DNA of 64,000 nt from positions 1 through 64,000 of the IMG/VR virus record IMGVR_UViG_3300012147_000007; one strand, written 5' to 3'. Below, piece by piece: positions 6,950 through 46,564 of the stretch. A program made the translations under genes and the position numbers. The notes under the pieces were generated by a model that was not told the origin of the DNA, did no database searches, and was given only the letters and a program-made list of their open reading frames with translations. The stretch is from an uncultured virus (IMG/VR IMGVR_UViG_3300012147_000007) (taxonomy: Duplodnaviria; Heunggongvirae; Uroviricota; Caudoviricetes). How positions within the stretch are numbered: position 1 is the stretch's first letter; each line of letters opens with the position of its first letter.

Positions 6950-6978
6950 AAAAAAAGCCCGACCTATTGGCCGAGCTT
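6950..6978 (-). terminator. Attenuator terminator of Asn/His/Thr/Lys/Ile leader
   Basis: AAGCTCGGCC-AATA-GGTCGGGCTT plus T run. Confidence 0.9.
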
Positions 6979-7004
6979 CTGTATATTTTAAATTGTACTT
7001 GTGA

Positions 7005-21331: not shown

Positions 21332-21365
21332 AAAAAAAGCTCGGTCCTTTTTGGAACCGAGCTTT
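21332..21365 (-). terminator. Attenuator terminator of Pro/Asp/Ala/Tyr/Gly/Met leader
   Basis: AAAGCTCGGTTCC-AAAAA-GGACCGAGCTTTTTTT. Confidence 0.9.
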
Positions 21366-21391
21366 AAACTATTCGTTTAGATATTATATTA

Positions 21392-21511
21392 TCAAACTTT
21401 AAGTTTATGCAAAACGATTCCGTCCCTGCTGCAATCATCTGCCGCTGGCGCCCCCATATAGCCCATCGGGTTAATTGAAGTGTTCTCGTTATATGTATAA
21501 ACTTTTTCCAT
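21392..21511 (-). CDS. Leader peptide (PMGYMGAPAADD block), putative attenuator
   Basis: MEKVYTYNENTSINPMGYMGAPAADDCSRDGIVLHKLKV*. Confidence 0.85.
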   Translation of the reverse strand: MEKVYTYNENTSINPMGYMGAPAADDCSRDGIVLHKLKV

Positions 21512-33588: not shown

Positions 33589-34293
33589 TTAAGATTCTTT
33601 GATTTTATTAATTAAAATAATTAAATCTTCATCAGAATGTCTATTTTTCATATAGTTAACACCCAAAACAACCCATCTAACATTGTTTTTTATATAGCCT
33701 AATTTGTTATCAACCCTATCTAAAGAAGCTGTTTCATAAATCTTAGTATCACTTTCTCTATTAGGCAATTTAATAGATATACCTGTAATTCCACACAACC
33801 CATTCTGCTCATCAAATAGTACTTCTAAATATTTACTATCCAAATCACACTCATAACCTTTTTTCTTAGACCTTTGAATTACTCCTTGTAAATAACAAGA
33901 AAAAGGATTGAAGGCTAGGGCGCCAAAACACTTACTTGAACAGGTGTTTTTATCTTTAATGTCTTTTTTGCTTTTAAAGTATTCTTTACCACAAATATAA
34001 CATGATACAGGATGTATTCTATTAGATTTAATGTGATTAATAGTAATGTTTGGATAAATATTCTTTAAAGATTCGTATTTGTTTAAATGACTTTTATTTA
34101 TAGTATCACTATTTCTATACTCACCAACCTGCTTTAGCACTTTAAGTTTGTTTTCTAAATAATGCTTGTGCCTATATTTTTTATGACAAGACTTGCAAAT
34201 TGACGATAAGCCGCTTTTCTTGCTTTTGTTTTTAGAAAAATCATCTATAGTTCTTTTAACATTACATTTTGGACATTTCTTTATTTTACACAT
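33589..34293 (-). CDS. Homing-endonuclease-like protein
   Basis: CPKC..CKSC; QNGLCGITG..ASLDRVDNKLGY..NV. Confidence 0.8.
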   Translation of the reverse strand: MCKIKKCPKCNVKRTIDDFSKNKSKKSGLSSICKSCHKKYRHKHYLENKLKVLKQVGEYRNSDTINKSHLNKYESLKNIYPNITINHIKSNRIHPVSCYICGKEYFKSKKDIKDKNTCSSKCFGALAFNPFSCYLQGVIQRSKKKGYECDLDSKYLEVLFDEQNGLCGITGISIKLPNRESDTKIYETASLDRVDNKLGYIKNNVRWVVLGVNYMKNRHSDEDLIILINKIKES

Positions 34294-34328
34294 ATCTATA
34301 TTTTATAATAAATAGTGTTAAAATTTAA

Positions 34329-34377
34329 AAAGCCTCCAAACACGCTATGTGTTGATATAACGTGTTTGGAGGCTTTT
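34329..34377. terminator. Long inverted repeat after tRNA-Trp
   Basis: AAAAGCCTCCAAACACG...CGTGTTTGGAGGCTTTT. Confidence 0.75.
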
Positions 34378-34378
34378 G

Positions 34379-34456
34379 CGCAGATGTCAGGATTCGAACC
34401 CGAACAGAATTAACACGGGGTTGGAATCCGCTTAGCTCACCAATGCATGCACCTGC
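34379..34456 (-). tRNA. tRNA-Trp (CCA)
   Basis: GCGGA-TTCCAAC-CCCGT, G73. Confidence 0.8.
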
Positions 34457-34488
34457 GTATATTTTGTGACCGAGGGAGGACTCAAACA

Positions 34489-34986
34489 TTAATCAATTAT
34501 CCCTCCATGTATTTCTCTATGACAATTTGAACATACTAAAATGCATTTATCTAATTCTTTTTTTACAGAATCAGTTAATTTTAAAAGTTTAATTCCACCC
34601 AGTTGAAAATCTTTTTCTTTCGGGTCGAGATGATGAAATTCCAATGCTCCACAATATTTATCATATCCGCACTTTTCACAACACCCTCCTTTATATTTAA
34701 CTGCAATAATTTTAAACCCCCTTTGCCTTTCAACTGTTTGCTCGTTAGTACAAGGCTTGCAATATGATGATGCTCCAGCCTTTCCTTTTCTTTGATAAAA
34801 TTCTACCAACTTCTTTTCTTTGCTACATCTCGGACACACTCTTTCTGTTTTTTCTCTGCTCTTACTTTTTAATTCATACTTCTTAAGCCAATACCTAATT
34901 GTAGTCTGACTTAAATTAAATTCATAACCCATTTGTCTTGTGGTCATTTTTTTATCAACCGACTTTTTTAACAACTCTTTTTCCAT
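34489..34986 (-). CDS. HNH endonuclease
   Basis: ALEFHHLDP..KCILVCSNCH; paralog of 6316-6774. Confidence 0.9.
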   Translation of the reverse strand: MEKELLKKSVDKKMTTRQMGYEFNLSQTTIRYWLKKYELKSKSREKTERVCPRCSKEKKLVEFYQRKGKAGASSYCKPCTNEQTVERQRGFKIIAVKYKGGCCEKCGYDKYCGALEFHHLDPKEKDFQLGGIKLLKLTDSVKKELDKCILVCSNCHREIHGGIID

Positions 34987-35036
34987 ACTAATAAATATGA
35001 AAAAAAAATATTATTTCATTTTGAGCTATAACTCTG

Positions 35037-35110
35037 AGGCCTTAGCGAGATTCGAACTCGCAACCTTTTGTTTAGGAAACAAAAACTCTGTCCAGTTGAG
35101 CTACAAGGCC
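35037..35110 (-). tRNA. tRNA-Arg (CCT)
   Basis: TT-CCT-AA, A20. Confidence 0.88.
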
Positions 35111-35113
35111 AAG

Positions 35114-35197
35114 TGATGCAAGCAAGCCAGGTTCTGCTCCTGGTTCCGCCTAAGCGGTATGCTCTGATGAACGTTCTTTTACAACATTACTCACATC
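35114..35197 (-). ncRNA. Multi-arm small RNA with 11-bp closing stem
   Basis: GATGTGAGTAA/TTGCTTGCATC, CCGC-TTAG-GCGG, CCAGG-AGCAGAA-CCTGG. Confidence 0.55.
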
Positions 35198-35199
35198 TT

Positions 35200-35282
35200 T
35201 GGTACACCAGGCGGGATTCCAACCCACATTTTCAGCTGCAATTACGGATAGCAATTTAGAAAAATGCCTCGGCTACTGGTGC
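35200..35282 (-). ncRNA. D-armless tRNA-like RNA, anticodon TCT (Arg), encoded CCA
   Basis: GCACCAG-TA-GCCGAG-GCATT-TTTCTAA-ATTGC, 23-nt variable region, T arm, ACCA. Confidence 0.65.
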
Positions 35283-35304
35283 TTATTTTTATAACTTTAT
35301 TTTT

Positions 35305-35878
35305 CTAAATATCTTTTTTTCTTGCAGAATTTTTATTCTTTGATTTATATGTATCTAACTGTGAATCGCAATTAGGACAAATTAATCGTAAATTATTTCT
35401 TAAATTATTACCAGCATCTCCATCTATATGGTCTAAAATAAAAACAATTTCCTTATCATTCCAAGTATTGGAATTATTACATATATCACATCTATTTTCT
35501 TGTTCTTTTAATATGTGAGATTTAATAAAATGCATATTTCTAACATAACAAAAATCACTTTGATTATTTAAGTAATTTTCATAAAATTTATTCTTTTTAT
35601 ATTTTTTTTCACATATTTTACCACAAAACTTTTGATTATAATGAGTTGTTAATTTAAACTCTTCATTACAATTAAGACAGTTTACCTCTTTTTTTATTCC
35701 TTTATTATGTGGCACATGCTCAGAATTAAACTTCTTTCTTTTTCTCTAACACAATACCTAATTTAATAGCATTTCTCCTTATTGTTGTATCAGAAACTTT
35801 ATATTTTTTAGCCACTTCAGTATAAGATAATTTTTCAACTATAATTAACTGATATAATTCTTCTTTATTGTATTTCAT
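35305..35878 (-). CDS. HNH endonuclease (frameshift in A run near 35740)
   Basis: LDHIDGDAGNN..NLRLICPNC; HTH N-terminus in adjacent frame. Confidence 0.8.
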
Positions 35879-35975
35879 ATTATAATTTTATTATAAATAT
35901 AAATATTTTTAACAAACCGATTACTAATGATAAATTGTTTTACACCTATGCATAATCGACTTGCAAACATATATG

Positions 35976-36049
35976 TGACTCCGATAGGATTCGAACCTAT
36001 AACCGTCAGGGTAGAAACCTGATGCGCTATCCAGTTGCGCCACGGAGCC
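35976..36049 (-). tRNA. tRNA-Arg (TCT)
   Basis: TCAGG-TTTCTAC-CCTGA, A20. Confidence 0.92.
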
Positions 36050-36055
36050 ATTTTG

Positions 36056-36142
36056 CGGAAGTAATGGGGCTCGAACCCATGCACCCCTTGCGGGGCCTAA
36101 TAACTTTCCAAGCTATCCTCTTTACCATTTGAGTATACTTCC
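36056..36142 (-). tRNA. tRNA-Ser (GGA)
   Basis: TT-GGA-AA, long variable arm, G73. Confidence 0.9.
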
Positions 36143-36149
36143 ATTAATA

Positions 36150-36241
36150 TGGCGGAGAGAGAGAGATTCGAACTCTCGATACCAGTTTCCCAGTATAACA
36201 CCTTAGCAGGGTGCCGCCTTCAACCACTCGGCCACCTCTCC
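36150..36241 (-). tRNA. tRNA-Ser (GCT)
   Basis: CT-GCT-AA, long arm, CCA. Confidence 0.93.
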
Positions 36242-36250
36242 GTATTTTTG

Positions 36251-36323
36251 TGGATTCAGCAGGATTTGAACCTGCAACCAACCCCTTTGCAAGAGCCGCT
36301 CTATCCAGTTGAGCTATGAATCC
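36251..36323 (-). ncRNA. Arg-like tRNA body with GCAA-capped anticodon arm
   Basis: A20 D loop; 18-nt arm GGCTCTT-GCAA-AGGGGTT. Confidence 0.7.
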
Positions 36324-36345
36324 AAGGGAACCATGTCTTCCCTCT

Positions 36346-36433
36346 TGGCGGTAGATATGGGGTTCGAACCCATGTTCCCTTTCGGGGCTACCTGTTTAGC
36401 AAACAGGCCTCTTTACCATTTGAGTAACCTACC
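36346..36433 (-). tRNA. tRNA-Ser (GCT)
   Basis: CCTGT-TTGCTAA-ACAGG, long arm, CCA. Confidence 0.9.
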
Positions 36434-36438
36434 AGTTG

Positions 36439-36520
36439 CACGGGGGTGAGGATTCGAACCTCACTCATCTTAAGGGAGCGACCCCTCAGATTTCCAGTGT
36501 AGCTACACTTCAAACCCCGT
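36439..36520 (-). ncRNA. tRNA-like RNA without canonical D/anticodon arms
   Basis: ACGGGG/CCCCGT, GTGAGG-TTCGAAT-CCTCAC, two tetraloop arms. Confidence 0.6.
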
Positions 36521-36528
36521 GTATATTG

Positions 36529-36617
36529 CGGAGGCGGCAGGATTCGAACCTGCGGACCCCTTTCAGGGCCACTGCTTTTCAAGAGCAGCGCAATAAACCA
36601 GACTCTGCCACGCCTCC
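36529..36617 (-). tRNA. tRNA-Ser (TGA)
   Basis: CT-TGA-AA, long arm. Confidence 0.93.
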
Positions 36618-36622
36618 GTATT

Positions 36623-36790
36623 TCAATTTTCTTCTTTATAACGTTTTATAAAGAACTCTCTTAATTCTTCCTTCCTTTTAATTGATGCCTTGATTCTCGC
36701 CACCTTTTCTGGAGAAGGGTCTGTATCAACTGTAAATTTGATTCCATTTTTCTCACAATAATCTGTCATTTCTTCAAAACAATTTTCCAT
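36623..36790 (-). CDS. hypothetical protein
   Basis: MENCFEEM... small ORF between tRNAs. Confidence 0.55.
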   Translation of the reverse strand: MENCFEEMTDYCEKNGIKFTVDTDPSPEKVARIKASIKRKEELREFFIKRYKEEN

Positions 36791-36804
36791 CTTTCTATTT
36801 TTTG

Positions 36805-36892
36805 CGGAGGGAGAGGGGGTCAAACCCTCAAGGCCGTTAAGCTCGCTGGGGTTCAAAACCAGTGCAGTCGTCTACTTTCTGCTTGCCCCTCC
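36805..36892 (-). tRNA. tRNA-Ser (TGA)
   Basis: TT-TGA-AC, long arm. Confidence 0.85.
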
Positions 36893-36906
36893 GTATTTTT
36901 TGGCAC

Positions 36907-36941
36907 AAAAAAAACCCTAATTCAAAAAGAACCAGGGTTTC
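36907..36941 (-). terminator. Attenuator terminator of Ser/Arg/Trp leader
   Basis: AAACCCTGGTTC-TTTTT-GAATTAGGGTTT plus T run. Confidence 0.88.
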
Positions 36942-36963
36942 AAATATTTTTATAACAGTATCG

Positions 36964-37056
36964 TTACATAACATTTTGACATACCAGTGTTCTTTCCGTA
37001 GCTCTATTCGAACTCGAACTCCATCTGGACCATCTATTTGTTATTACTGTTTTCAT
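36964..37056 (-). CDS. Leader peptide (RWSRWSSSSNR block), putative attenuator
   Basis: MKTVITNRWSRWSSSSNRATERTLVCQNVM*. Confidence 0.88.
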   Translation of the reverse strand: MKTVITNRWSRWSSSSNRATERTLVCQNVM

Positions 37057-37258
37057 CTTATTTCTAAATATAGGAAAAAAAGTTTATTTCTTCTTTCCTC
37101 GTGTTTTATTTTTATTATCGTCTTTACCTTTTTCTTTTTTAAGTTGTTTCATCCAACCTTCTAAGGCTTCTAAATTTGCGTGTGTGCTATTTACTGACAT
37201 CTAATTGTTTTCTTCTACGCAAATCTATAACAAATGTTTCAATAAATCAAATCTTTTT

Positions 37259-37528
37259 TTATTTTTTTTCAATCGACCTCATAGTTCCAAACCACTCAGC
37301 CCTTGATACTACTATAAAAAACGTAGGATTGTCATCATAAAACTTTTTTATAATTTGACAAATTTCAAACTCTTCTTTATCTTGAAAATAGGAAATAGCC
37401 TCATCAACAATAAAAGTTGGAGTTAATTCATTCGCAATTCTTTTACTAATGTCTTTTGCAACACTTGCAACACAATTGTAGAATAATATATCTTCCTTTT
37501 TAATATTTGATTTGCCCCTGATTCTCAT
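37259..37528 (-). CDS. hypothetical protein
   Basis: 89-aa ORF. Confidence 0.7.
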   Translation of the reverse strand: MRIRGKSNIKKEDILFYNCVASVAKDISKRIANELTPTFIVDEAISYFQDKEEFEICQIIKKFYDDNPTFFIVVSRAEWFGTMRSIEKK

Positions 37529-37531
37529 GAG

Positions 37532-37882
37532 TTAATATTTAACACCAGAATTTCTTCTTGGCTTCGAAGTTCTTTTTAATTTTTTAACTTTAGTATCTTG
37601 ATTTAATGTGGCACAAAATAAAGAAGTTGAACCTGGTTGCTGAAGCGGTATTGTTCCACTGTCTTCACAAAGAGGAACGTTCCATGGAACTGTTTTTGTA
37701 TTATCATAAATAAAAGGCTTAGCATCATCTTGGCTAAACCTGTCTGGAGTCACTTTGTCAAACACTAAGTCAAGATGGTCTTGAATAGTTTTAACCTGCT
37801 CAGGAGTCATTCCTTTCTCAAGCATATCTGGATTCATCTCAAGTGCTCCTTGTAGCCAATATGCAAACTCATTACTTCCCAT
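37532..37882 (-). CDS. hypothetical protein
   Basis: FAYWLQG..E..QVKTIQDHLDLVF. Confidence 0.7.
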   Translation of the reverse strand: MGSNEFAYWLQGALEMNPDMLEKGMTPEQVKTIQDHLDLVFDKVTPDRFSQDDAKPFIYDNTKTVPWNVPLCEDSGTIPLQQPGSTSLFCATLNQDTKVKKLKRTSKPRRNSGVKY

Positions 37883-37886
37883 TCTT

Positions 37887-38699
37887 TTAATTTTTATATT
37901 TCCAAATAAATCCACCAGAAGTTTTACTTCTTCCTTTTAAACAATTTACAATACTTGTTTTTTTAATTCCAGTTGAATTAGATGCATCACTAATGCTTTT
38001 GAAATCATTAATAAATTCACTGCTATTATCAAACTGAATTACTTCTAAAATATTATGTTTAGGAGGCTCAATATATTTATCAATTTTTATTTTAACTTTT
38101 CCATCTTTATATATCCACATAAACTCACTACATCTATAACCATTTCCTTTACAAACTTGAGTTATATTAGAATGACTTAAGTTTAATTTTTCTCCAGCAT
38201 CAACAGCAGATTCCCATTCTTTAATAAAGTTTCCCTCCAAATTATATTGCAAAATTGGTTTTTTAATAGAATCAAAATGTTTTCTAATAGCCTTTTTCCT
38301 ATTTCCATTTTTATCGTTTTGATTTATTTTTAAACCAAATCTTGCTTTTTTATTGTTAATATACTGCTGTTTGCTCCATGGTATTCCAATTCTTCCATAG
38401 GTTGCACCACCTTCTCCACCTTCTAAATGATTAGTTAAATCAAACAAACCACTATAATATTTAATCCAATATCTTTCTCGCTCCTGCCAATTATTTTTGC
38501 CACATTCTTCAATTAACTCTATTTTTGGAACTAATCCTTTTTTTATAACTGAATTAATCCATATAGCTGAATGATACTTGTTATACTTACTCCTATTAAT
38601 ATGAGACCTTAGTCTTTTTTTCATATTAGTAGTTTTTCCAATATATCTAATATCATTAATAATTGGGTCTTTTAAACAATATATAAAAATCTTTCTCAT
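37887..38699 (-). CDS. GIY-YIG endonuclease with NUMOD1 repeats
   Basis: FIYCLKDP..RYIGKT; IKEWESA; SGGFIWKY. Confidence 0.9.
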   Translation of the reverse strand: MRKIFIYCLKDPIINDIRYIGKTTNMKKRLRSHINRSKYNKYHSAIWINSVIKKGLVPKIELIEECGKNNWQERERYWIKYYSGLFDLTNHLEGGEGGATYGRIGIPWSKQQYINNKKARFGLKINQNDKNGNRKKAIRKHFDSIKKPILQYNLEGNFIKEWESAVDAGEKLNLSHSNITQVCKGNGYRCSEFMWIYKDGKVKIKIDKYIEPPKHNILEVIQFDNSSEFINDFKSISDASNSTGIKKTSIVNCLKGRSKTSGGFIWKYKN

Positions 38700-38797
38700 A
38701 TAAATAAATATGCTAAAAAATTAAATAAATTATTTTGCATTCATAATTATTCTTCTGCGTTCATGTTTCTTTATTATAAATAAATTTAAATTTTAAA

Positions 38798-39055
38798 TTA
38801 GAGAGCGTTTTCTTCAAGAAATTTCCATTTATCTTCCTCTTTTACCAACAAAACAAGAGCATGTCTCCATGCTTCAATCTCATCTCCTGACAACCCATGA
38901 ATGTAAACCTTCTCTCCCCAAAGTGCCTTAGCAAAATCTTCTCTGAAAATAATTGCATAAACATTTGTTCCATTTACTATTCTACCCAATTCATACTCAG
39001 CATCAGGACCTTTGTAGCCACCAGCTTTAGCTTTGGCCATTACTTTCTGGAAAAT
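38798..39055 (-). CDS. hypothetical protein
   Basis: IIFREDFAKALWGE. Confidence 0.6.
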   Translation of the reverse strand: MFQKVMAKAKAGGYKGPDAEYELGRIVNGTNVYAIIFREDFAKALWGEKVYIHGLSGDEIEAWRHALVLLVKEEDKWKFLEENAL

Positions 39056-39062
39056 GTCTAAT

Positions 39063-41174
39063 TTATTCACTATCTTTCTTTTTTGATTCAAGCATAACTA
39101 TGTTCCCTTGCTTATCTCCATACCTTTGTGTTAGAGTTTTTCTTGGACCTCCATTAGCATCTTCTTCTGAAAGAGCATCTGCAATCCTTTGCTTAAATGT
39201 GTGATAAGTGTCTTTATCTCTAAGAGCTATTGGTTTACCATATTCATCAATGAATTTTTTAACCTTCTTAGCATCCATTCTTGAGTGGGTTGACAAATAT
39301 TCACCAATCTTTAATAGAAGATATTTATTATCACTAAGTATTTTCGTACACTCCTCTTCGCACTCTCTGATAAGTTTTCTTGCCGCTTGCTCGGTAGCTT
39401 TTACGTTTTCTGTATTGAACATTGTGTTAGTGCTTGAACTCTTGTGTCCGTAAAACATTGGAACCTCGTCAAGCATACCAAAAATCTTAGCCATATTTAA
39501 AGCAACTGAAGTTGCACTTTCAAAATCTCCTCCAGTACCAACTCCAAGATTTTCTTCTCCAAAAATCATTTTCTCAGCAACAAACCCGCCAAGAGCTATG
39601 ATTATATACTTTCTTAAAGTATCTCTCGTGTCAATAGCTGGAAGCTCTGCTGCACAGTACCCTTCAGACATATTAGCTGTTCTACTAAGTATTTCTGTAG
39701 GAAGAATTTGAGCTCCATATATTGCTGCAACAGCATGTCCAGCTTCGTGTATTGCTACGTGAGCTTGCATTTCGTCTCCAGTAGATTTTCTTAGACTTTC
39801 AATTTTTAATTTAACTGGGAATTGTGATGTAGACAAAATCTCTCTACTACTATTTAGCATCTCTATTTTATGTTTTCCTCTGGTAAATTTCCACGAAACT
39901 ATTTTGACCGAACCTTTTGTTTCAATTATTTGCTCAATTACTTTTCCAACATGACTTTCTACAAGAGAATTTATAGTTGTAAAAACTGGCCTTGCTCCTT
40001 GCGTTGGCAAAACACCTTCTTTGTAAACAATTGTGTTTACTGATTCGTGAAATTCAATATCAATATCATATTCACTACTTATTTTTTCAACAAGCTTTTC
40101 TAACTCAAGAGATATAAGTTGCCTATAAACCTTAGAACTGAAGGCAGGATATATTATTTGACTATTTCCAAGCCTGGCAATTTGTTCTGCTCTAAACCTC
40201 TTTTGTAAGGCAGCTTTTATTTTTGGCATCGTAATCTTTAGAGAATGCTTATAAAACCTATCAGCATCACTATCTGGGTCAAAGTTGTTTGACATTTGAT
40301 ATGCTTCATCAACATTTCCAATAACAAAAATACAAGACTTAGAATAATCGAACTCCATTGGCTTAAACGCTCTATGCATTGTTTCATCAAGAAAAGTAAG
40401 AGACTCATTGTGGTCCATCGTCTTAAGGAACTCCTTCAACTCTCTCTCTGATAAAAATCTCGTTTCCCAAATTGACTGTATGTACCAATAGAAAACTGAA
40501 GGAACAAATAGGTCTTCCTTTTTTTCTTCTTCTTTTTCTTTCTTGTTTTTTGAATCCGTGCCATCTTCTTTGAAGTACTTTTCGTGATAACTCTTGTTTG
40601 ATGATATAATTCCCATCTTAGACTCAACTTTTCCGCTGTCTACACAGTCTTTTAACTTCAAGTAAAGATGATACACTCTACTTCCATAATAAGAACTCTG
40701 AAGGATTGAAATCTTTCCAGAATCTAATAAATCCCACATAGCTCTAAGTCCTGATTTATCAAGTTCTTCACCATTTTCGTTTATAGTTCTTCCAAGTTGG
40801 AATTCGTCAAACACAATTCCTATCTGGTGGCCTTCTCTGTTTTTTAACTCTTCTGAAAATGAATGAGCTAATTTTGTGTTATCTTGTGAAGCATAATCTC
40901 CAACATCAAACTTATAAAGACTGTCTTCCAAGCCAATGTGAAAGAAAAGTCTTTTTACCAACCTTGTCTTTCCTACTCCAGTCATTCCCCAGAGATTAAT
41001 AATTGTTGGTCTAATCTGCCCATTAGGAAAAAGATACCAAGGCCTCATTAAATCGACCACCTCATCAATGATGTCATCAAGCCCAACGAACTCCTTTTTC
41101 AATTCCACTTTGGCACTTTCTAATACCTCTTTTCTTCTAAGAAACCCCTTTTTATCTTCAGCTGAAATTTTCAT
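39063..41174 (-). CDS. AAA+ ATPase fused to peptidase M41 (FtsH-like, no TM segments)
   Basis: GMTGVGKT, VFDEFQ, HEAGH, LGGFVAE, GDFESAT. Confidence 0.85.
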   Translation of the reverse strand: MKISAEDKKGFLRRKEVLESAKVELKKEFVGLDDIIDEVVDLMRPWYLFPNGQIRPTIINLWGMTGVGKTRLVKRLFFHIGLEDSLYKFDVGDYASQDNTKLAHSFSEELKNREGHQIGIVFDEFQLGRTINENGEELDKSGLRAMWDLLDSGKISILQSSYYGSRVYHLYLKLKDCVDSGKVESKMGIISSNKSYHEKYFKEDGTDSKNKKEKEEEKKEDLFVPSVFYWYIQSIWETRFLSERELKEFLKTMDHNESLTFLDETMHRAFKPMEFDYSKSCIFVIGNVDEAYQMSNNFDPDSDADRFYKHSLKITMPKIKAALQKRFRAEQIARLGNSQIIYPAFSSKVYRQLISLELEKLVEKISSEYDIDIEFHESVNTIVYKEGVLPTQGARPVFTTINSLVESHVGKVIEQIIETKGSVKIVSWKFTRGKHKIEMLNSSREILSTSQFPVKLKIESLRKSTGDEMQAHVAIHEAGHAVAAIYGAQILPTEILSRTANMSEGYCAAELPAIDTRDTLRKYIIIALGGFVAEKMIFGEENLGVGTGGDFESATSVALNMAKIFGMLDEVPMFYGHKSSSTNTMFNTENVKATEQAARKLIRECEEECTKILSDNKYLLLKIGEYLSTHSRMDAKKVKKFIDEYGKPIALRDKDTYHTFKQRIADALSEEDANGGPRKTLTQRYGDKQGNIVMLESKKKDSE

Positions 41175-41253
41175 TGTCTTTTTTTTATGTAAAGATAGTC
41201 AATTCAATTCTATAAACAAAAAGAATCCTGAACAATTTGCTCAGGACTCTTTT

Positions 41254-41883
41254 TTACTTTAAAACCCACTGATAGTATCCAGGTTTTTTGTTGTTATCCA
41301 ATCTTTCAAATAAACCAGACTTATAAACACCATGTGTGTTATGCAGATTTGAGCCTTGCTCTTTTTCGTCTTTATCATACACCTTCCATGTATAATAATG
41401 ATGCATATTTGGTTTTAACTCTTTGTTGTCAACCTCTTTGTTTTGAAACCAGGTCCAACCATCTTTTGCATTGTCTGAATTTCTTTTTATGTTTTCATCA
41501 AAAAATCTCTTTTCCATTTCATACTCTTCATCCCAAGCTTCTTTTGCAATCTTCAAGATTCTATCCTCTCTTTCTTTTCTTTGCTCTGGGAATGAATATG
41601 TAAGTTCAAACTTAAACATCTTCTTAATGTTATCCCAATTATCTGGGTCATGTAAATCAAAGTGATGTTCAACAAAGCCATCAATATCTCTGCAATGCAA
41701 ATCTATCTTAGAACCTTTTGTTGAATATACGTAGTTTCCATCTTCATCAATGTATGAGTATGGGCCATCCCAGTATCCAGCTTTGTGTTCTGCGAAAACT
41801 GGGATTCCACCCTCCATTCTTATATGAGCATTACCTTCTGGGTCTGCCTCTTGAAGCATTTTTATAAATTCTGATGTTGTCAT
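41254..41883 (-). CDS. hypothetical protein
   Basis: 209-aa ORF. Confidence 0.75.
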   Translation of the reverse strand: MTTSEFIKMLQEADPEGNAHIRMEGGIPVFAEHKAGYWDGPYSYIDEDGNYVYSTKGSKIDLHCRDIDGFVEHHFDLHDPDNWDNIKKMFKFELTYSFPEQRKEREDRILKIAKEAWDEEYEMEKRFFDENIKRNSDNAKDGWTWFQNKEVDNKELKPNMHHYYTWKVYDKDEKEQGSNLHNTHGVYKSGLFERLDNNKKPGYYQWVLK

Positions 41884-42365
41884 TACTGTAAGATTTTTTT
41901 GATTTCTAACTTCAATGTTTCCGAATCAGAACTTGCGTCAATAAACCTTTTGACAATATCCCACTTAACTTTCATCTCTGCAGATGGTTTAACTGACTTA
42001 TGCTTCATCTCCTGACGGAACACATTGTTCTTAAGCATTCCAAGATGATTCTTTGTTGTAACCCAACTTGTGTCAGCCACCTTGACATTAACCTTTCCAC
42101 CTTCAATCGTAACCGCTACATAGTGTAGTTTACCATCAAATGTTGTTGAGAATACTTTGCAGTAATCTTCTTTAAAATCCTTGTCCCACACGTATTTCGT
42201 TTGGAAATAATGCTTCTCTGAAGCTTTTAGGTAATCCGATACCATCTTGTCTAATTGTTCTTGCGTAGGTATTACCTTCACTGATTTTTCTTTTTTCATA
42301 ACTTTTGTTTTTACTGTTTCTAACGTTTTCATAATTTTTGTTTTTAAATTTTTAATTGATTTCAT
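41883..42365 (-). CDS. hypothetical protein
   Basis: ORF coupled to next gene. Confidence 0.7.
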   Translation of the reverse strand: MKSIKNLKTKIMKTLETVKTKVMKKEKSVKVIPTQEQLDKMVSDYLKASEKHYFQTKYVWDKDFKEDYCKVFSTTFDGKLHYVAVTIEGGKVNVKVADTSWVTTKNHLGMLKNNVFRQEMKHKSVKPSAEMKVKWDIVKRFIDASSDSETLKLEIKKILQ

Positions 42366-42378
42366 TGTTTTTGATTTT

Positions 42379-42804
42379 TTATTGTTCACTGCATGGTGGG
42401 TGACCAAACTTGTGAAAGTACTTCAAGGGTCTTTTAAATTTACCATCAACCCAGAATCCCCACTTCCTTTTACTTCTTCCAGAGAATACGAGTGTCCAAC
42501 ACCCTCCTTCTGGTACATCCACATAATGAGCATGAGTTGCTTTTCTGTATCTGATAGAACCTGCTTTCATCAAGTCTCTTCCATCATTTGATACATCTGT
42601 ATAACTCCCTTTCAATACACATGTTAGGAATGACCATCCGTGGTCGTGCATGTACCTCTTGTCATCGCTTCTAATGAAATGATGAATTCTGATGGCGAAG
42701 AAGTGAAAATTAAATATCCATCTATACGCATAAGGGCACTCTTTTTCTCCAAGAGCCTCATTCCACCTTACTTGAATTGGTCTGTATTTCTTAAACTTTT
42801 TCAT
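42379..42804 (-). CDS. Cupin-like protein
   Basis: IHHFIRSDD..HDHGWSF..GSY..H. Confidence 0.7.
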   Translation of the reverse strand: MKKFKKYRPIQVRWNEALGEKECPYAYRWIFNFHFFAIRIHHFIRSDDKRYMHDHGWSFLTCVLKGSYTDVSNDGRDLMKAGSIRYRKATHAHYVDVPEGGCWTLVFSGRSKRKWGFWVDGKFKRPLKYFHKFGHPPCSEQ

Positions 42805-43310
42805 TTTTCTAAATTTATAAGAATTGTGGGTACAGTTTTTCCATCCTCCATATAAGAATTATCTGGGAGGACTGTGATTGTGTAACTCTTATCTTCGAGC
42901 CACTTACGAAATTTAATTTGAAGTTCCGAATTTCCAGTCATCCAATAAGGAGACATGATAGAAATGATTTTTCCACCCTCTTTAACGCAATCATACATCT
43001 TCATGACATGTTCGCAGTCGATGTTGTCTTTGAAGTTTGGTGCGCCAATTACTCGGTCATATAAATACTTTGGTTTGAAGTCAAGAAAATTGCTCCAAAT
43101 AACATTGAACCCCTTATCTCTCAATACCTCTTTGCATTGCGAGTTAAGTTCAATACAATCCAAATCAATGTTTGGATTATGTTTAAGAATGCCTTCGGCT
43201 AATAAGCCAACTCCTGCAGATGGTTCAAGGACTTTGTGCCCATCTTGTATATCAGCCACCTACATGAAGTGGTCAATAACTGACTGTGTTGTTTCTCTTT
43301 TTGTTTTCAT
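42801..43310 (-). CDS. SAM-dependent methyltransferase-like protein with in-frame TAG at codon 17
   Basis: MKTKRETTQSVIDHFM*VADIQDGHKVLEPSAGVG; NPPF position reads APNF. Confidence 0.75.
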
Positions 43311-43326
43311 TTTTACTTATATTTAG

Positions 43327-43474
43327 TGGCACAGGGTGGGCTCGAACCAACGACCTCTGGGTTACGGTGAGTGAATCTTTTTCACTTTACACATACTACT
43401 CGCCTTATTACGTAATTCACGCTTTTGCTCGGTAACCTTATCTCCAGCGCTCTAACCAACTGAGCTACTACGCC
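43327..43474 (-). ncRNA. Met-like tRNA body with ~75-nt insert in anticodon loop
   Basis: GGCGTAG/CTGTGCC-A, canonical D and T arms, insert closed by GGTTAC/GTAACC. Confidence 0.75.
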
Positions 43475-43525
43475 TGGTGCCGCAGGGAGGAATGACCCTC
43501 CACTTTATAGCCTGATGGCTGCAGC
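43475..43525 (-). ncRNA. ~50-nt mini-tRNA with encoded ACCA
   Basis: GCTGCAG...TATAAAG-T-GGAGG-GTCATT-CCTCC-CTGCGGC-ACCA. Confidence 0.65.
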
Positions 43526-43531
43526 GTGTTG

Positions 43532-43583
43532 TGGGAGAACCAGGATTCGAACCTGAGATTGATACCTTACATATCTTTCTCCC
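43532..43583 (-). ncRNA. 52-nt tRNA-like RNA lacking one arm
   Basis: GGGAGAA/TTCTCCC-A, GATAT..GTATC hairpin, CAGG-TTCGAAT-CCTG. Confidence 0.65.
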
Positions 43584-43588
43584 ATTTG

Positions 43589-43726
43589 TGCCCGTGAGTG
43601 GATTCGAACCAAAGAACTCTTTTCCCACTTTGTTGCAACGTTTCGGAATCGAGTGCAAGAATATACCAACTGTTACTCCTCACAATTAAACGTTATCATT
43701 GCGTCTTGTAATCTTGCATCACGGGC
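43589..43726 (-). ncRNA. 138-nt RNA with tRNA acceptor stem and T loop
   Basis: GCCCGTG/CACGGGC-A, GGTTCGAATCC, TGCAAGA/TCTTGCA stem. Confidence 0.6.
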
Positions 43727-43731
43727 GTTTG

Positions 43732-43807
43732 TGGCGAATGAAGGGTTCGAACCTCCGACCTCTGCCATCCGAAGATGATAGCGCTCTACCAACTGAGCTA
43801 ATTCGCC
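43732..43807 (-). ncRNA. Met-like tRNA body with cUUCGg-capped anticodon arm
   Basis: CTATCATC-TTCG-GATGGCAG. Confidence 0.75.
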
Positions 43808-43856
43808 TGGTGCAGTGGGGAAGTTTGACCTCCCGCTTTATAACCGAGTCACTGCG
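43808..43856 (-). ncRNA. ~50-nt mini-tRNA with encoded ACCA
   Basis: GCAGTG...TATAAAG-C-GGGAG-GTCAAA-CTTCC-CCACTGC-ACCA. Confidence 0.65.
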
Positions 43857-43865
43857 TATGTTTTG

Positions 43866-43937
43866 TGGTCCATATCGGGCTCGAACCGACAACCTGCGGG
43901 GTTAGAATCCGCTGCTCTACCATTGAGCTAATAGACC
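43866..43937 (-). tRNA. Amber suppressor tRNA (CTA)
   Basis: Canonical cloverleaf; GCGGA-TT-CTA-AC-CCCGC. Confidence 0.85.
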
Positions 43938-43993
43938 TTGTTGTCCTTGGGGCTGGGATTTGAAAATTGTTTCTATTTATATAAAAACAAAAT

Positions 43994-44695
43994 ATGAAAC
44001 CACTATTCACCGACAAGGAATATAATTCTGCTAAATCAATGGACAAATTATCATGCGAGTGTTATTATTGCGAAGAAGCTTTTTATGAAATCAAGAAAAG
44101 AATCACAGAATTCAAAAAAGGAAACTCTACCAGAACATTGAAGTCTTGTTCTAAAAAAGAATGCAAAGCTAAGCAGCAATCAAAAACACACAATAAACAA
44201 AAGTTAGTAACATGTGAAAACTGCGATAAAGAGTTCTCCAAAACAAGAAGTCAAATTAAAAAATCTAATAATAACTTCTGCTCTCGCTCCTGCAGCGCAA
44301 CCCACAACAATAAAAACAAGACTCATGGTACTCGTAGGTCAAAACTTGAAGTATGGCTGGAGGAGCAACTTGCCTATCTGTATCCAGAGCTTAAAATTCA
44401 TTATAATCAAAAAGATGCAATAAATTCAGAGTTAGATATATACATACCAAGTTTTAACCTTGCAATTGAAATAAATGGTATTTTTCACTACAAACCTATA
44501 TTCGGAGAAGATAAGTTTAATAATATTATAAAAAATGACCAAAATAAATTACAAGCATGTATTGATGAAGGTATCGAAATAATATCAATTGATGTTTCTC
44601 AAATGAATTATTTCAAGCCAAAAAAGGCTCAAAAATACCTTGACATCATTTGTCAATTAATTAGCAATAAGTCAAAGAACATGTTAAAATCTTAG
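43994..44695 (+). CDS. Zn-finger + PD-(D/E)XK-like homing endonuclease
   Basis: FCSRSC, RSKLE, ELDIYIP..IEINGIFHY. Confidence 0.85.
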   Translation: MKPLFTDKEYNSAKSMDKLSCECYYCEEAFYEIKKRITEFKKGNSTRTLKSCSKKECKAKQQSKTHNKQKLVTCENCDKEFSKTRSQIKKSNNNFCSRSCSATHNNKNKTHGTRRSKLEVWLEEQLAYLYPELKIHYNQKDAINSELDIYIPSFNLAIEINGIFHYKPIFGEDKFNNIIKNDQNKLQACIDEGIEIISIDVSQMNYFKPKKAQKYLDIICQLISNKSKNMLKS

Positions 44696-44751
44696 TCACT
44701 CCATTGAGTGTGCAGCAACCACTACGTGCAAGTGTTTTAACTTTGGTTACC

Positions 44752-44828
44752 TCCTGGCGGCTGAGATTCGAACTCACGACCTCTATCAAATATCAGGATA
44801 GCGCTCTAACCAACTGAGCTACGCCAGG
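44752..44828 (-). ncRNA. Ile-like tRNA with 9-nt anticodon loop
   Basis: CTATC-CTGATATTT-GATAG. Confidence 0.65.
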
Positions 44829-44852
44829 TTGTTTTTATATTTCATCACATCA

Positions 44853-45281
44853 TTATGATGCTGTTTTTTTAATGTTATTAATATGAAAATTACTAACAGG
44901 GTCTTCTTTTATTCCTTGAGAATCAACCCACTGTTCGTAGTATTCTTTTTGAGCAAGACGTAAGCTACCTGTTAACCTACGAGCTTGGTCGCATGCTTCA
45001 ATAGCCATAGATGTTGCTTTATGATTTAAGTCTGGTTCACGAAATACAGAAACACACACTCCTCTTTGTCGAAGTTTTTCAACAAGAGACAATAAAGACT
45101 CTTCGTCTTCAATTGATAAACATGCTACGTATTGTGAATTTTCGTACCATTCCTTAAATTGGTCTGGATACTCGACTGCAAATTGAGACATTGCATGAGC
45201 CGATTGCGCAATTTGAGCTCCAGGATGCAAATCTCTTGTAACAACTATTCTAAGTTTTTCATTATTTTTTACCTATTTCAT
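44853..45281 (-). CDS. Peptidyl-tRNA hydrolase, Pth2-like, in-frame TAG at codon 3
   Basis: MK*VKNNEKLRIVVTRDLHPGAQIAQSAHA...FREPDL..T. Confidence 0.8.
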
Positions 45282-46489: not shown

Positions 46490-46564
46490 AAGTTGTGCGC
46501 CAGGATGAATATCACGTATTGTGACTATTCTTAATTTTGAATTATTAATCTATAAGTTTTTCAT
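46490..46564 (-). pseudogene. Displaced 5' remnant of Pth2-like gene (also with early TAG)
   Basis: MKNL*INNSKLRIVTIRDIHPGAQL. Confidence 0.8.

What the first reader, a model, noticed from the sequence alone, without database searches (positions are those of the whole stretch)
36907..37056. Ser/Arg/Trp leader attenuator with isoacceptor-level match
The block is AGA TGG TCC AGA TGG AGT TCG AGT TCG AAT AGA. TCC, AGT and TCG correspond to the three Ser anticodons downstream (GGA, GCT, TGA), AGA to Arg-TCT and TGG to Trp-CCA. AAAGAACACTGG..TCAAAATGTT (36970-36995) pairs with AATATTTGA..CCTGGTTCTTT and ends just before the stop, the textbook attenuator geometry.
Basis: partly seen in the sequence, partly recalled or inferred. 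Interest (0 to 1): 0.92.

Follow-up and report, generated by a model that had tools for sequence, protein, structure and literature searches.

The report
Leader-peptide attenuators gating phage tRNA arrays
A tiny gene spelled largely in serine, arginine and tryptophan codons, followed by a switchable transcription stop, sits directly in front of a phage's block of serine, arginine and tryptophan-type tRNA genes, and four sister copies tuned to other tRNA blocks suggest the phage makes each tRNA set mainly when ribosomes run short of it.

Summary
On the minus strand a 30-codon ORF (37056..36964) carries the block R-W-S-R-W-S-S-S-S-N-R. An intrinsic terminator follows (36941..36911 plus a T-run). 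Only about 10 bases separate the T-run from a tRNA array (Ser x4-5, Cys, Arg x2, a weak Trp-like tRNA), which ends at a strong terminator (~34376..34326).

It is one of five paralogous cassettes in this uncultured lake phage. Each has a shared promoter or 5'UTR motif, a small ORF, a terminator and a tRNA array, and each ORF is rich in the codons of its own array. The clearest case is seven Gln codons before four tRNA-Gln genes. The true leader-to-array pairing is the best of 120 permutations. Matched codons are biased to rare synonymous codons (16 of 67, 4.9 expected).

Every cassette has an alternative hairpin that sequesters the terminator's 5' arm (C: -20 kcal/mol, z -4.05). Simple ribosome-masking models predict a clean switch only for cassette A, and kinetically for E. 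C is ambiguous.

Best reading: ribosome-mediated attenuation of tRNA transcription, a known mechanism on a new target. Six literature searches found no published account. Earlier notes of this scan report the same kind of element in other phages. There is no expression evidence.

The parts
37220..37260 (-). Repeated promoter-like element of cassette C (TTTG at 37251..37248, TAGATTTG at 37227..37220), followed by the shared start GCGTAGAAGAAA
   Evidence: Copies lie at ~7203, ~21604 and ~46637 on the same strand. The match to a Bacteroidota -33/-7 consensus is my recollection, not a tool result.
37084..37200 (-). 38-codon Lys-rich ORF between the promoter and the leader. It is present only in cassette C and is in the same frame as the leader.
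   Evidence: Its role is unknown.
37057..37073 (-). 5'UTR motif CTATATTTAGAAATAAG directly before the leader ATG, shared by the cassettes
36964..37056 (-). Leader ORF of cassette C, 30 codons plus TAA
   Evidence: It is identical in L005 and L007, and its coding part is identical in L006.
37003..37035 (-). Regulatory codon block AGA TGG TCC AGA TGG AGT TCG AGT TCG AAT AGA
36970..36998 (-). Region 2: 5' strand of the antiterminator (codons 20-29 of the leader)
36924..36949 (-). Region 3: 3' strand of the antiterminator; includes the terminator 5' arm 36941..36929
36903..36941 (-). Intrinsic terminator: 13-pair stem 36941..36911 with a 5-nt loop, then a T-run 36910..36903
36804..36892 (-). First element after the terminator: a degenerate tRNA-like sequence with a long variable arm and anticodon TGA (Ser-like)
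   Evidence: ARAGORN calls it only at an 85% threshold. Rfam tRNA gives no hit at E<=1. tRNA-Sec gives 20 bits, E 0.12.
35975..36617 (-). Core of array C: tRNA-Ser(TGA), Ser(GCT), Cys(GCA), Ser(GCT), Ser(GGA), Arg(TCT)
35036..35110 (-). tRNA-Arg(CCT)
34379..34456 (-). Weak tRNA-Trp(CCA)-like element, last of the array
   Evidence: 24.2 bits, below the gathering score of 29
34326..34376 (-). Strong terminal terminator of the transcription unit (-32.5 kcal/mol, z -11.3)
21336..21511 (-). Sister cassette B: leader 21511..21392 (MEKVYTYNENTSINPMGYMGAPAADDCSRDGIVLHKLKV) and terminator 21365..21336, before Pro, Asp, Pro, Asp, (Ala-like), Tyr, Gly, Gly, Met
6955..7115 (-). Sister cassette A: leader 7115..7005 (MYSLNIHTTINNTICNKKQNGMVELCISKNGSDELI) and terminator 6978..6955, before Asn, Asn, His, Thr x3, Lys x2, Ile, Met, Cys x2

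Best explanation
The 30-codon ORF and the hairpins after it form a ribosome-mediated (leader-peptide) transcription attenuator that gates a phage tRNA operon.

Proposed mechanism (inferred, not shown):
1. Transcription starts at the repeated promoter (~37260..37220).
2. A ribosome translates the leader.
3. If it decodes the Arg/Trp/Ser block (37035..37003) without delay, it runs on over region 2 or is released. The leader then folds on itself (1:2), the terminator 36941..36911 (3:4) forms, and transcription stops ~10 nt before the array.
4. If the ribosome stalls on the block because charged Ser, Arg or Trp tRNA is scarce, region 1 is covered and region 2 (36998..36970) pairs with region 3 (36949..36924). 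The terminator's 5' arm is sequestered, and RNA polymerase reads through into the Ser/Cys/Arg/Trp-type tRNA genes.

The product of the operon relieves the stall, so this is a demand-driven feedback loop on tRNA supply. The phage carries at least five such cassettes, each tuned to its own array.

Shown: the sequence elements, the codon-to-array match, and the alternative pairings. Inferred: translation of the leader, stalling, and the switch itself.
For: (1) Anatomy of cassette C:
- ORF, terminator and array.
- The whole leader region folds as a 1:2 hairpin plus terminator: -44.2 kcal/mol, z -4.63, 0 of 200 shuffles.
- The mutually exclusive 2:3 hairpin is -20.0 kcal/mol, z -4.05, 0 of 200 shuffles.
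- Only 18 nt lie between the terminator stem and the first tRNA-like gene, with no TTTG/TAnnTTTG motif there in any of the 5 cassettes. The array can therefore be reached only by read-through.

(2) Paralogous cassettes with the same promoter/5'UTR motif, small ORF, terminator tail TTTTTTTGTG and an array:
- A: run NIHTTINNTICNKK before Asn, Asn, His, Thr x3, Lys x2, Ile, Met, Cys x2.
- B: PMGYMGAPAADD before Pro, Asp, Pro, Asp, (Ala-like), Tyr, Gly x2, Met.
- D: a Leu/Phe/Val/Arg-rich leader before Phe, Val, Leu, Arg(ACG), Leu, Leu.
- E: QQQQQQQ before four tRNA-Gln genes, 16 nt after the terminator.

(3) Statistics:
- The true leader-to-array pairing is the single best of 120 permutations, at codon and at amino-acid level, with strict or loose tRNA sets.
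- C strict: 10 of 29, P=0.0075. E: a run of 7, reached by 0 of 20,000 windows.
- Rare synonymous codons make up 16 of 67 matched-amino-acid codons against 4.9 expected (0 of 5,000 draws). Among the other leader codons they are 10 of 86 against 7.5 expected (P=0.21).
- In C, 3 of 5 Ser codons are TCC or TCG, which together are 7% of Ser codons in 78 long ORFs. Binomial P is about 0.003 (my arithmetic).
- Arg codons track the Arg isoacceptor. C has AGA 4 of 4 with Arg-TCT/CCT. D has CGT 2 of 3 with Arg-ACG. Relative L113 has CGC and CGT, 2 of 3, with Arg-GCG. Genome usage is AGA 71%, CGT 6%, CGC 1%.

(4) Antiterminators:
- In all 5 cassettes the segment from just after the codon block to the terminator's 5' arm folds as one hairpin whose basal helix sequesters that arm. 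z-scores: A -5.69, B -3.07, C -4.05, D -3.78 (0 of 200 shuffles each); E -1.70 (12 of 200).
- The cross-matrix of leader 3' parts against terminator arms places the true pairing 2nd of 120.
- Ribosome masking gives a clean switch for A: terminator pair probability 0.96 falls to 0.00-0.14 at codons 2-14 and is back to 0.96 from codon 16. A kinetic proxy supports E: barrier 13.5-15.6 kcal/mol when stalled against 5.5 at the stop codon.

(5) Natural variation:
- L006 and a salt-lake contig change a G.U pair of the terminator stem to G-C.
- A diverged copy has an in-frame 3-nt insertion and a synonymous TCG>TCA.
- Gln leaders in other metagenomes keep six or seven Gln codons through CAA/CAG swaps and an in-frame deletion.
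Against: For cassette C itself:
- The equilibrium model keeps the terminator at 0.91-0.97 pair probability wherever the ribosome is placed.
- The kinetic proxy differs little between a stalled ribosome (10.4-11.2 kcal/mol) and one at the stop codon (9.8).
- The plain duplex test of region 2 against region 3 gives P=0.07.
- C's leader 3' part pairs better with B's terminator arm (-11.0) than with its own (-7.9) in the restricted cross-test.

For the other cassettes:
- B and D show no switch in either model.
- B's duplex test gives P=0.26.

On the codon match:
- Under the strict tRNA set, leader C is as decodable by array A (0.34) as by its own array (0.34). Only background-corrected enrichment separates them: 0.116 against 0.310.
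- The Trp tRNA, the first Ser-like element and B's Ala tRNA are below standard detection thresholds.
- The leader also holds 3 Asn and 4 Thr codons that its array does not serve.

Other gaps:
- There is no evidence that any leader is translated, and no RNA data.
- Only near-identical relatives of cassette C were obtained, so there is no covariation test for C.
- An extra 38-codon ORF lies between promoter and leader only in C.
Confidence: 0.74

Rival explanations
1. The codon-matched leader does sense tRNA supply through the ribosome, but the output is not the 2:3/3:4 hairpin switch. Possible alternatives are a translating ribosome that changes precursor processing or stability, Rho-type termination after uncoupling, or a terminating ribosome that physically perturbs the nearby terminator.
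For: The codon match is strong. My folding proxies predict a switch only for A and E. The stop-to-terminator spacing is similar across the five cassettes, 22 to 31 nt.
Against: All five cassettes have an intrinsic terminator. All five also have a stable alternative hairpin that uses its 5' arm. That is unexplained if the hairpins are irrelevant.
Confidence: 0.13
2. The small ORF and terminator are an ordinary small gene, or merely the end of the upstream transcription unit. The tRNA arrays would be expressed independently, and the codon resemblance has no regulatory meaning.
For: Phage genomes are full of small ORFs and terminators. No expression data exist. Some matched tRNAs are weak calls.
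Against: - The true pairing is the best of 120 permutations.
- A Q7 leader sits before four tRNA-Gln genes.
- Rare-codon bias is restricted to the matched amino acids.
- There is no room or motif for a promoter between terminator and array: 16-18 nt in C and E.
- The leader peptides are unrelated low-complexity strings after a shared N-terminus.
Confidence: 0.08
3. The region is a structured non-coding RNA that binds uncharged tRNA or a protein directly (T-box-like or protein-mediated antitermination), and the ORF is incidental.
For: The region is strongly structured (z -4.63). There are weak sub-threshold resemblances to terminator-containing leaders (PyrR site 25.1 bits, rnk leader 24.8 bits).
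Against: - No Rfam family reaches its gathering score, and no T-box match is listed.
- Variation keeps the reading frame and the amino acid: an in-frame indel, TCG>TCA, CAA/CAG swaps.
- Runs of several different codons for up to six amino acids fit ribosome reading, not a single specifier.
Confidence: 0.03
4. Chance: an AT-rich genome throws up a short ORF and hairpins that happen to resemble an attenuator.
For: Single-cassette statistics for C under the strict tRNA set are modest: P=0.0075 and 0.02.
Against: Five cassettes show concordant matches, shared architecture, and homologous leaders in other metagenomes.
Confidence: 0.02

Closest known systems
Multivalent leader-peptide attenuators of enterobacterial amino-acid operons (thrL with Thr/Ile codons, ilvL/ilvGMEDA leader with Ile/Val/Leu, hisL with seven His codons, trpL); recalled from textbook knowledge, not read here
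   Same: A short ORF with a cluster of codons for the sensed amino acids, including rare codons. It is followed by overlapping 1:2, 2:3 and 3:4 pairings and a Rho-independent terminator directly before the regulated genes. Cassette E (seven Gln codons) resembles hisL. Cassettes A-D resemble the multivalent thr/ilv leaders.
   Different: - The regulated genes are tRNA genes, not biosynthetic enzymes, so the sensed molecule and the product are the same class (direct feedback).
- The element is viral.
- It comes as a set of at least five paralogous cassettes with swapped codon blocks.
- There is no sequence match to the Rfam leader families.
pheST (pheM) leader-peptide attenuator of phenylalanyl-tRNA synthetase in E. 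coli (recalled, not read here)
   Same: Leader-peptide attenuation controlling a component of the translation apparatus in response to the supply of charged tRNA.
   Different: It regulates a synthetase gene, for one amino acid, in a cell. Here the tRNA genes themselves are regulated, for several amino acids, in a phage.
T-box riboswitches (Rfam RF00230)
   Same: Transcription antitermination that responds to tRNA status, through a terminator/antiterminator choice.
   Different: A T-box binds uncharged tRNA directly through a specifier codon and the T-box sequence, without a ribosome. No T-box match was found here, and the element is an ORF with runs of codons.
Earlier unpublished notes of this scan on other phages (e1-5836933, e1-5870437, e1-5886956, e1-5926054, e1-6024449, e1-2978539)
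   Same: The same layout is described: a shared promoter, a test ORF of about 30 codons written in the array's codons, and a terminator directly before each tRNA block.
   Different: They concern other genomes. No look-alike stretch of this window was on record. I did not check those notes, so they are leads, not support.

Membership tests
Leader-peptide (ribosome-mediated) transcription attenuators | Short ORF with start and stop codon in the 5' leader of the regulated unit | tested here: met
   30-codon ORF 37056..36964 downstream of a repeated promoter. The same position is held by small ORFs in 4 sister cassettes.
Leader-peptide (ribosome-mediated) transcription attenuators | Cluster of codons for the sensed amino acids | tested here: met
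   R-W-S-R-W-S-S-S-S-N-R. 10 of 29 codons (strict tRNA set) or 12 of 29 (loose set) are readable by the array, against a background of 0.116-0.128. The true pairing is the best of 120 permutations across cassettes.
Leader-peptide (ribosome-mediated) transcription attenuators | Intrinsic terminator between the leader and the regulated genes | tested here: met
   13-pair stem plus T8 at 36941..36903. The first tRNA-like gene starts ~10 nt after the T-run.
Leader-peptide (ribosome-mediated) transcription attenuators | Antiterminator pairing mutually exclusive with the terminator, its 5' strand at the 3' end of the leader ORF | tested here: met
   36998..36970 pairs with 36949..36924: -20.0 kcal/mol, z -4.05, 0 of 200 shuffles. 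Analogous hairpins exist in all 5 cassettes.
Leader-peptide (ribosome-mediated) transcription attenuators | Ribosome position on the regulatory codons decides between terminator and antiterminator | tested here: inconclusive
   In-silico ribosome masking gives a clean switch for A and kinetic support for E. The result for C is weak (0.91-0.97 terminator probability at all positions; barriers 11.2 against 9.8 kcal/mol). B and D show none.
Leader-peptide (ribosome-mediated) transcription attenuators | Regulated genes are amino-acid biosynthesis/transport or aminoacyl-tRNA synthetase genes | tested here: not met
   The downstream genes are tRNAs with interspersed homing-endonuclease genes. This is why I file it as a new variant and not as a member of a described attenuator family.
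Leader-peptide (ribosome-mediated) transcription attenuators | Read-through induced by starvation for the cognate amino acid or tRNA | not testable with these tools
   No RNA run holds the stretch. A bench test is needed.
Rfam leader families (Trp, His, Thr, Leu leaders) and T-box | Match to the family covariance model at its gathering score | tested here: not met
   No such family is listed for 34000..45000 at E<=1, for the whole window at gathering scores, or for 36790..37070 at E<=10.
Codon-matched leader cassettes before phage tRNA arrays (unpublished notes of this scan) | Promoter, ORF of about 30 codons spelled in the array's codons, and terminator directly before a tRNA block, repeated for several blocks in one phage | tested here: met
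   Five cassettes in this phage. The notes themselves were not checked.

The most novel reading that the evidence does not exclude
Large phages carry sets of codon-matched ribosome-sensing attenuators, one per tRNA array. These work as array-specific demand sensors. Each block of viral tRNA genes is transcribed only when ribosomes stall on the very codons that block reads, including rare wobble-read codons. This would let the phage detect and repair a mismatch or a host-inflicted depletion of particular tRNAs, for example by anticodon nucleases or infection-induced tRNA decay. It would be the first case of leader-peptide attenuation controlling tRNA genes, and a direct feedback loop on tRNA supply.
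Probability: 0.55. Interest if true: 0.92.

Novelty: new variant of a known kind. Interest (0 to 1): 0.86.

Why it matters
How phages regulate their often large tRNA arrays, and why they carry them, are open questions. A leader-peptide attenuator in front of each array would mean that tRNA supply is sensed directly by the ribosome and corrected by transcription. That control logic is known for amino-acid synthesis but, as far as six full-text searches show, not described for tRNA genes.

It makes the questions testable. Each cassette is a ~200-nt self-contained part that can be fused to a reporter. It predicts which codons and which tRNAs switch it. It offers natural sensors for the availability of specific tRNAs, and it links phage tRNAs to host tRNA-depleting defences.

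The paralogous family, with one scaffold and swapped codon blocks and co-varying antiterminators, is also a natural experiment in how attenuators are retargeted.

Tried and rejected
- **RNA evidence.** No RNA holder was listed for 34300..37300, so expression could not be examined.
- **Cultured relatives.** blastn of 36500..41200 and of cassette E against 50,697 phage records found only tRNA similarity. tblastn of the helicase found nothing above 31% identity.
- **IMG/VR pattern scans** and a protein-anchored scan returned only three near-identical contigs plus chance hits. No covariation test was therefore possible for cassette C.
- **Handles** for metagenome contigs are not held.
- **Reads**. 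One salt-lake variant replaces 36917..37007 by 93 other letters that the tool did not show, so its terminator and antiterminator remain unknown.
- **Equilibrium ribosome-mask model.** No switch for B, C, D or E. My first measure, which required all stem pairs at once, was too strict and was replaced.
- **TAG recoding.** Reading TAG as sense adds little open frame (164 to 201 frames of >=100 codons, fewer than for TGA or TAA), and TAG ends 7 of 95 long frames. I found no support for a recoded genome despite a tRNA with anticodon CTA.
- **Pseudo-tRNA idea.** I considered whether the ORF region is a decayed tRNA (the TTCGA motifs). No tRNA model match covers 36900..37060.
- **Plus-strand ORF** 36862..37164 (100 aa). 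It spans the tRNA-like element, the terminator and the leader in antisense. I treated it as spurious and did not test it.
Full report
**What is at the coordinates.** The finding lies on the minus strand. Searches show a 30-codon ORF at 37056..36964 (MKTVITNRWSRWSSSSNRATERTLVCQNVM, stop TAA). Twenty-two bases after the stop codon the consensus scan finds a terminator-like hairpin: stem 36941..36911, 13 pairs, a 5-nt loop, then eight T. On its own it folds at -16.1 kcal/mol. About ten bases after the T-run a tRNA array begins.

**The array and its bounds.**
- ARAGORN and Rfam agree on Ser(TGA) 36617..36528, Ser(GCT) 36433..36346, Cys(GCA), Ser(GCT), Ser(GGA) 36142..36055, Arg(TCT) 36049..35975 and Arg(CCT) 35110..35036.
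- Four further tRNA-like elements are below standard thresholds:
  - a Ser(TGA)-like one right after the terminator (36892..36804);
  - one at 36520..36438;
  - one at 35282..35200 (26.8 bits);
  - a Trp(CCA)-like one at 34456..34379 (24.2 bits against a gathering score of 29; the alignment places CCA in the anticodon loop).
- The unit ends at a very strong terminator, ~34376..34326 (-32.5 kcal/mol, z -11.3).

**Genome context.** The window is the first 64 kb of a 117-kb IMG/VR virus record. It has about 34% G+C, and its genes are almost all on the minus strand. It holds about 35-40 tRNA genes, homing endonucleases, FtsH-like proteases and a helicase. No cultured phage is close. Public runs that hold it are lake and salt-lake metagenomes. 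A near-identical, more complete record of 195 kb (G001) is in IMG/VR.

**Sister cassettes.** The 55 bases upstream of the unit (37260..37205) recur three more times on the same strand. I read this element as a promoter of the Bacteroidota type: TTTG, about 20 nt, then TAnnTTTG. That consensus is my recollection, not a tool result. Two of the copies head other tRNA arrays with the same layout.
- **A:** promoter, 5'UTR motif CTATTTAGAAAAAAG, ORF 7115..7005 (MYSLNIHTTINNTICNKKQNGMVELCISKNGSDELI), terminator 6978..6955. The array is Asn, Asn, His, Thr x3, Lys x2, Ile, Met, Cys x2. The His tRNA is at 6194..6110, scores 41.5 bits, and I read its anticodon GTG by eye.
- **B:** ORF 21511..21392 (MEKVYTYNENTSINPMGYMGAPAADDCSRDGIVLHKLKV), terminator 21365..21336. 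The array is Pro, Asp, Pro, Asp, a weak Ala(TGC)-like element, Tyr, Gly, Gly, Met.

The part of G001 that my record lacks holds two more cassettes.
- **D:** MKNINNILRQLSLQFLQLLFVFSRQKFGRDMSLV, a terminator, then Phe, Val, Leu, Arg(ACG), Leu, Leu.
- **E:** MKTVININVQQQQQQQSSKEDSPGGA, a terminator, and 16 nt later four tRNA-Gln genes (TTG, TTG, CTG, TTG).

C and E share the first five codons. All five terminators share the tail TTTTTTTGT(G/T). A scan for that terminator type found these five cassettes and three other sites (G000 minus strand 49351, G000 plus strand 60832, L080 5779). Those three follow other ORFs that I did not examine, and no tRNA array was noted at them.

**Is the codon match more than chance?**
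- *Pairing test.* I scored every leader against every array with simple wobble rules. The true pairing gives the highest total of all 120 permutations. This holds at codon and at amino-acid level, and with or without the weak tRNA calls.
- *Leader C.* Against 20,000 random windows from 78 long ORFs, leader C has 10 of 29 codons readable by its seven firm tRNAs (background 0.116, P=0.0075). With the weak Trp-like and Ser-like calls it is 12 of 29, with a run of nine that no random window reached. Among 343 short ATG-ORFs of the genome only the leader itself has such a run.
- *Other cassettes*. A: run of 12, 0 of 20,000. E: run of 7, 0 of 20,000. D: 14 of 33, 0 of 20,000 for the fraction. B: 12 of 38, P=0.057 strict; 15 of 38, P=0.020 loose.
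- *A point against.* Under the strict set, leader C is as readable by array A (0.34) as by its own array (0.34). Only the background differs: 0.310 for A against 0.116 for C.

**Codon level.** Two things are not trivial.
- *Ser codon choice.* Leader C avoids the common Ser codons (TCT 33%, TCA 29%). It uses TCC once and TCG twice, which together are 7% of Ser codons in long ORFs. Three of five gives a binomial P of about 0.003 (my arithmetic).
- *Rare codons across leaders.* Across the five leaders, rare synonymous codons (<=12% use) make up 16 of 67 codons of array-matched amino acids. The expectation is 4.9, and 0 of 5,000 draws reach 16. Among the other leader codons the count is 10 of 86 against 7.5 expected (P=0.21). 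For leader C alone the same test is not significant (3 of 10, P=0.11).
- *Arg isoacceptors.* Arg codons follow the Arg isoacceptor downstream. C has AGA 4 of 4 before Arg(TCT)/Arg(CCT). D has CGT 2 of 3 before Arg(ACG). A related metagenome cassette has CGC and CGT, 2 of 3, before Arg(GCG). CGT is 6% and CGC is 1% of Arg codons.

**RNA structure.**
- *Fold of the C leader.* The C leader region (37060..36895) folds at -44.2 kcal/mol (z -4.63, 0 of 200 shuffles). The structure is a long hairpin that pairs the codon block with the 3' part of the ORF (1:2), followed by the terminator (3:4).
36998..36970 pairs with 36949..36924, which includes the terminator's 5' arm. The 77-nt segment folds at -20.0 kcal/mol (z -4.05, 0 of 200).
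- *Same architecture in all five cassettes*, with different sequences: A -26.0 kcal/mol, z -5.69; B -18.0, z -3.07; D -18.9, z -3.78; E -15.3, z -1.70 (12 of 200 shuffles as good).
- *Cross-test.* Pairing the leader 3' parts with the bare terminator arms puts the true pairing second of 120 permutations. A, D and E are best on the diagonal, but C pairs better with B's arm.
- *Duplex shuffles:* A 0 of 500, D 0.016, E 0.014, C 0.07, B 0.26.

**Does ribosome position flip the switch in silico?** Results are mixed, and I report them as such.
- *Equilibrium model.* Masking a 30-nt footprint codon by codon makes cassette A switch cleanly. Terminator pair probability is 0.96 without a ribosome, 0.00-0.14 with the ribosome on codons 2-14, and 0.96 from codon 16 to the stop. 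At equilibrium the terminators of B, C, D and E stay formed at every position. In textbook attenuators the terminator is also the more stable structure and the choice is kinetic (recalled), so this is not decisive.
- *Kinetic proxy* (structure formed before region 4 exists, then the direct-path barrier to the terminator fold). It supports E: 8 of 11 arm bases sequestered and 13.5-15.6 kcal/mol when stalled, against 2 of 11 and 5.5 at the stop codon. It is weak for C: 9 of 13 and 10.4-11.2, against 7 of 13 and 9.8. It does not support B or D.
- These static proxies ignore RNA polymerase pausing, ribosome release and 1:2 refolding.

**The array depends on read-through.** Between the terminator stem and the first tRNA there are 18 nt in C, 16 in E and 54-81 in A, B and D. 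None of the five spacers holds a TAnnTTTG motif.

**Variation and relatives.**
- *IMG/VR.* Two contigs are identical through cassette C. A third (L006) differs at three bases. One of them turns a G.U pair of the terminator stem into G-C. Right after the terminator, L006 has an HNH endonuclease gene in place of the first tRNA-like element.
- *Salt-lake contigs laid on the window*. One shows the same G.U to G-C change. One diverged copy of the leader has an in-frame 3-nt insertion and a synonymous TCG to TCA; the listed changes also include a +1 and a -1 indel about 18 nt apart. One variant keeps the first 16 codons but replaces 36917..37007 with 93 other bases that the tool did not show.
- *Metagenome scan*. 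Of 27 loci, 8 were true cassettes:
  - the E leader on a 364-kb contig;
  - MKTVINITCQQQQQQQSSKEDSPGGA before four tRNA-Gln genes (two contigs);
  - a six-Gln version before three tRNA-Gln genes, differing by CAA/CAG swaps and an in-frame deletion;
  - MKTVINISSSVRRQVIFFVQQCVRELGKGM before Val(TAC), Val(GAC) and Arg(GCG) (two contigs).
- Frame and amino acid are kept while third positions change. That fits a translated sensor better than a purely structural RNA.

**Comparison with what is known.**
- No Rfam family reaches its gathering score over the leader. The best are generic terminator-like resemblances: PyrR site 25.1 bits against 54, and rnk leader 24.8 against 50. No T-box or amino-acid leader family appears.
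- In function the element matches leader-peptide attenuators. Cassette E is hisL-like, and A-D are thr/ilv-like multivalent leaders. It fails one defining feature of the described families, because the regulated genes are tRNAs.
- Six full-text searches found no paper describing leader-peptide attenuation of tRNA genes. I saw only listings and abstracts, plus one passage of PMC3082878, which concerns a tRNA operon promoter and is unrelated. Subscription-only literature is not covered.
- Earlier notes of this scan describe the same kind of cassette in several other phages. None concerns this genome or a look-alike stretch. I reached my reading before seeing them and did not test them.

**Verdict.** The most likely mechanism is classical ribosome-mediated attenuation, turned into a feedback loop on tRNA supply and repeated once per array with a retargeted codon block and a co-varying antiterminator.
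- *Shown:* the elements, the match and the alternative folds.
- *Inferred:* translation of the leader, stalling, the switch, and any link to host tRNA depletion.
- For cassette C specifically the structural modelling is only moderately supportive, and one of its three sensed amino acids (Trp) rests on a weak tRNA call.

Noticed in passing
window 11174-11600 (-): A GOLLD RNA match (RF02032, 169.4 bits against a gathering score of 150, full length) lies in the tRNA-rich region of this phage.
   Followed up: no
window 43865-43937 (-) and 46564-46550 (-): A tRNA with anticodon CTA would read TAG. The gene behind promoter copy 46637 has an ATG at 46564 and an in-frame TAG at 46552..46550, in the same frame as the 370-aa HNH ORF that starts at 46462. 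Genome-wide I saw no sign of TAG recoding.
   Followed up: partly
window 36892-36804, 36520-36438, 35282-35200, 34456-34379, 20236-20163 (all -): Non-canonical tRNA-like elements sit inside the arrays. Their acceptor and T arms are intact, but the D or anticodon domains are aberrant, and they score below ARAGORN default or Rfam gathering thresholds. Whether they are working tRNAs, decoys or decaying copies is open.
   Followed up: partly
window 6194-6110, 3502-3405, 13176-13077, 43474-43327 (all -): These tRNAs pass the Rfam threshold but carry insertions. One is a His(GTG) with a hairpin inserted in the D-loop. Others are 98-148 nt long and may hold introns. The one at 12992-12920 has a shortened anticodon loop (ARAGORN reports the anticodon as 'tt').
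   Followed up: no
window 6947-6903 (-), 21331-21283 (-), L079 3021-3062 (+): After the terminators of cassettes A, B and D there is a shared motif GAAACGT inside a small hairpin whose stem differs between copies (GTGA/TCAC, ATGGA/TCCAT). B and D also share TCGAAAG. The folds are weak (z 0.0 to -1.6). This may be a processing signal of the tRNA precursor.
   Followed up: partly
window 37200-37084 (-): A 38-codon Lys-rich ORF (MSVNSTHANLEALEGWMKQLKKEKGKDDNKNKTRGKKK) is inserted between the promoter and the leader only in cassette C. It is in the same frame as the leader, and its stop lies 27 nt before the leader ATG.
   Followed up: no
L006 3380-3659 (IMG/VR contig of a near-identical phage): In this variant an HNH endonuclease gene starts right after the attenuator terminator, where the window has the first tRNA-like element. 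Homing endonuclease genes are also interspersed in the window's arrays (35715-35305, 38699-37887, 4730-3960, 46462-45350).
   Followed up: no
window 39063-41174 (-) and 52808-54823 (-): There are two FtsH-like ATP-dependent protease homologues in one phage: phrog_4871 at E 4.7e-239 for the second, and a divergent 703-aa one next to cassette C.
   Followed up: no
window arrays A (7115-1700), B (21511-18160), C (37056-34326); L079 arrays D, E: The tRNA genes are sorted into arrays by codon family. Array A holds mostly codons that start with A (Asn, Lys, Thr, Ile, Met). Array C holds Ser, Arg(AGR), Cys and Trp. Array E holds only Gln. This fits one sensor per array.
   Followed up: partly
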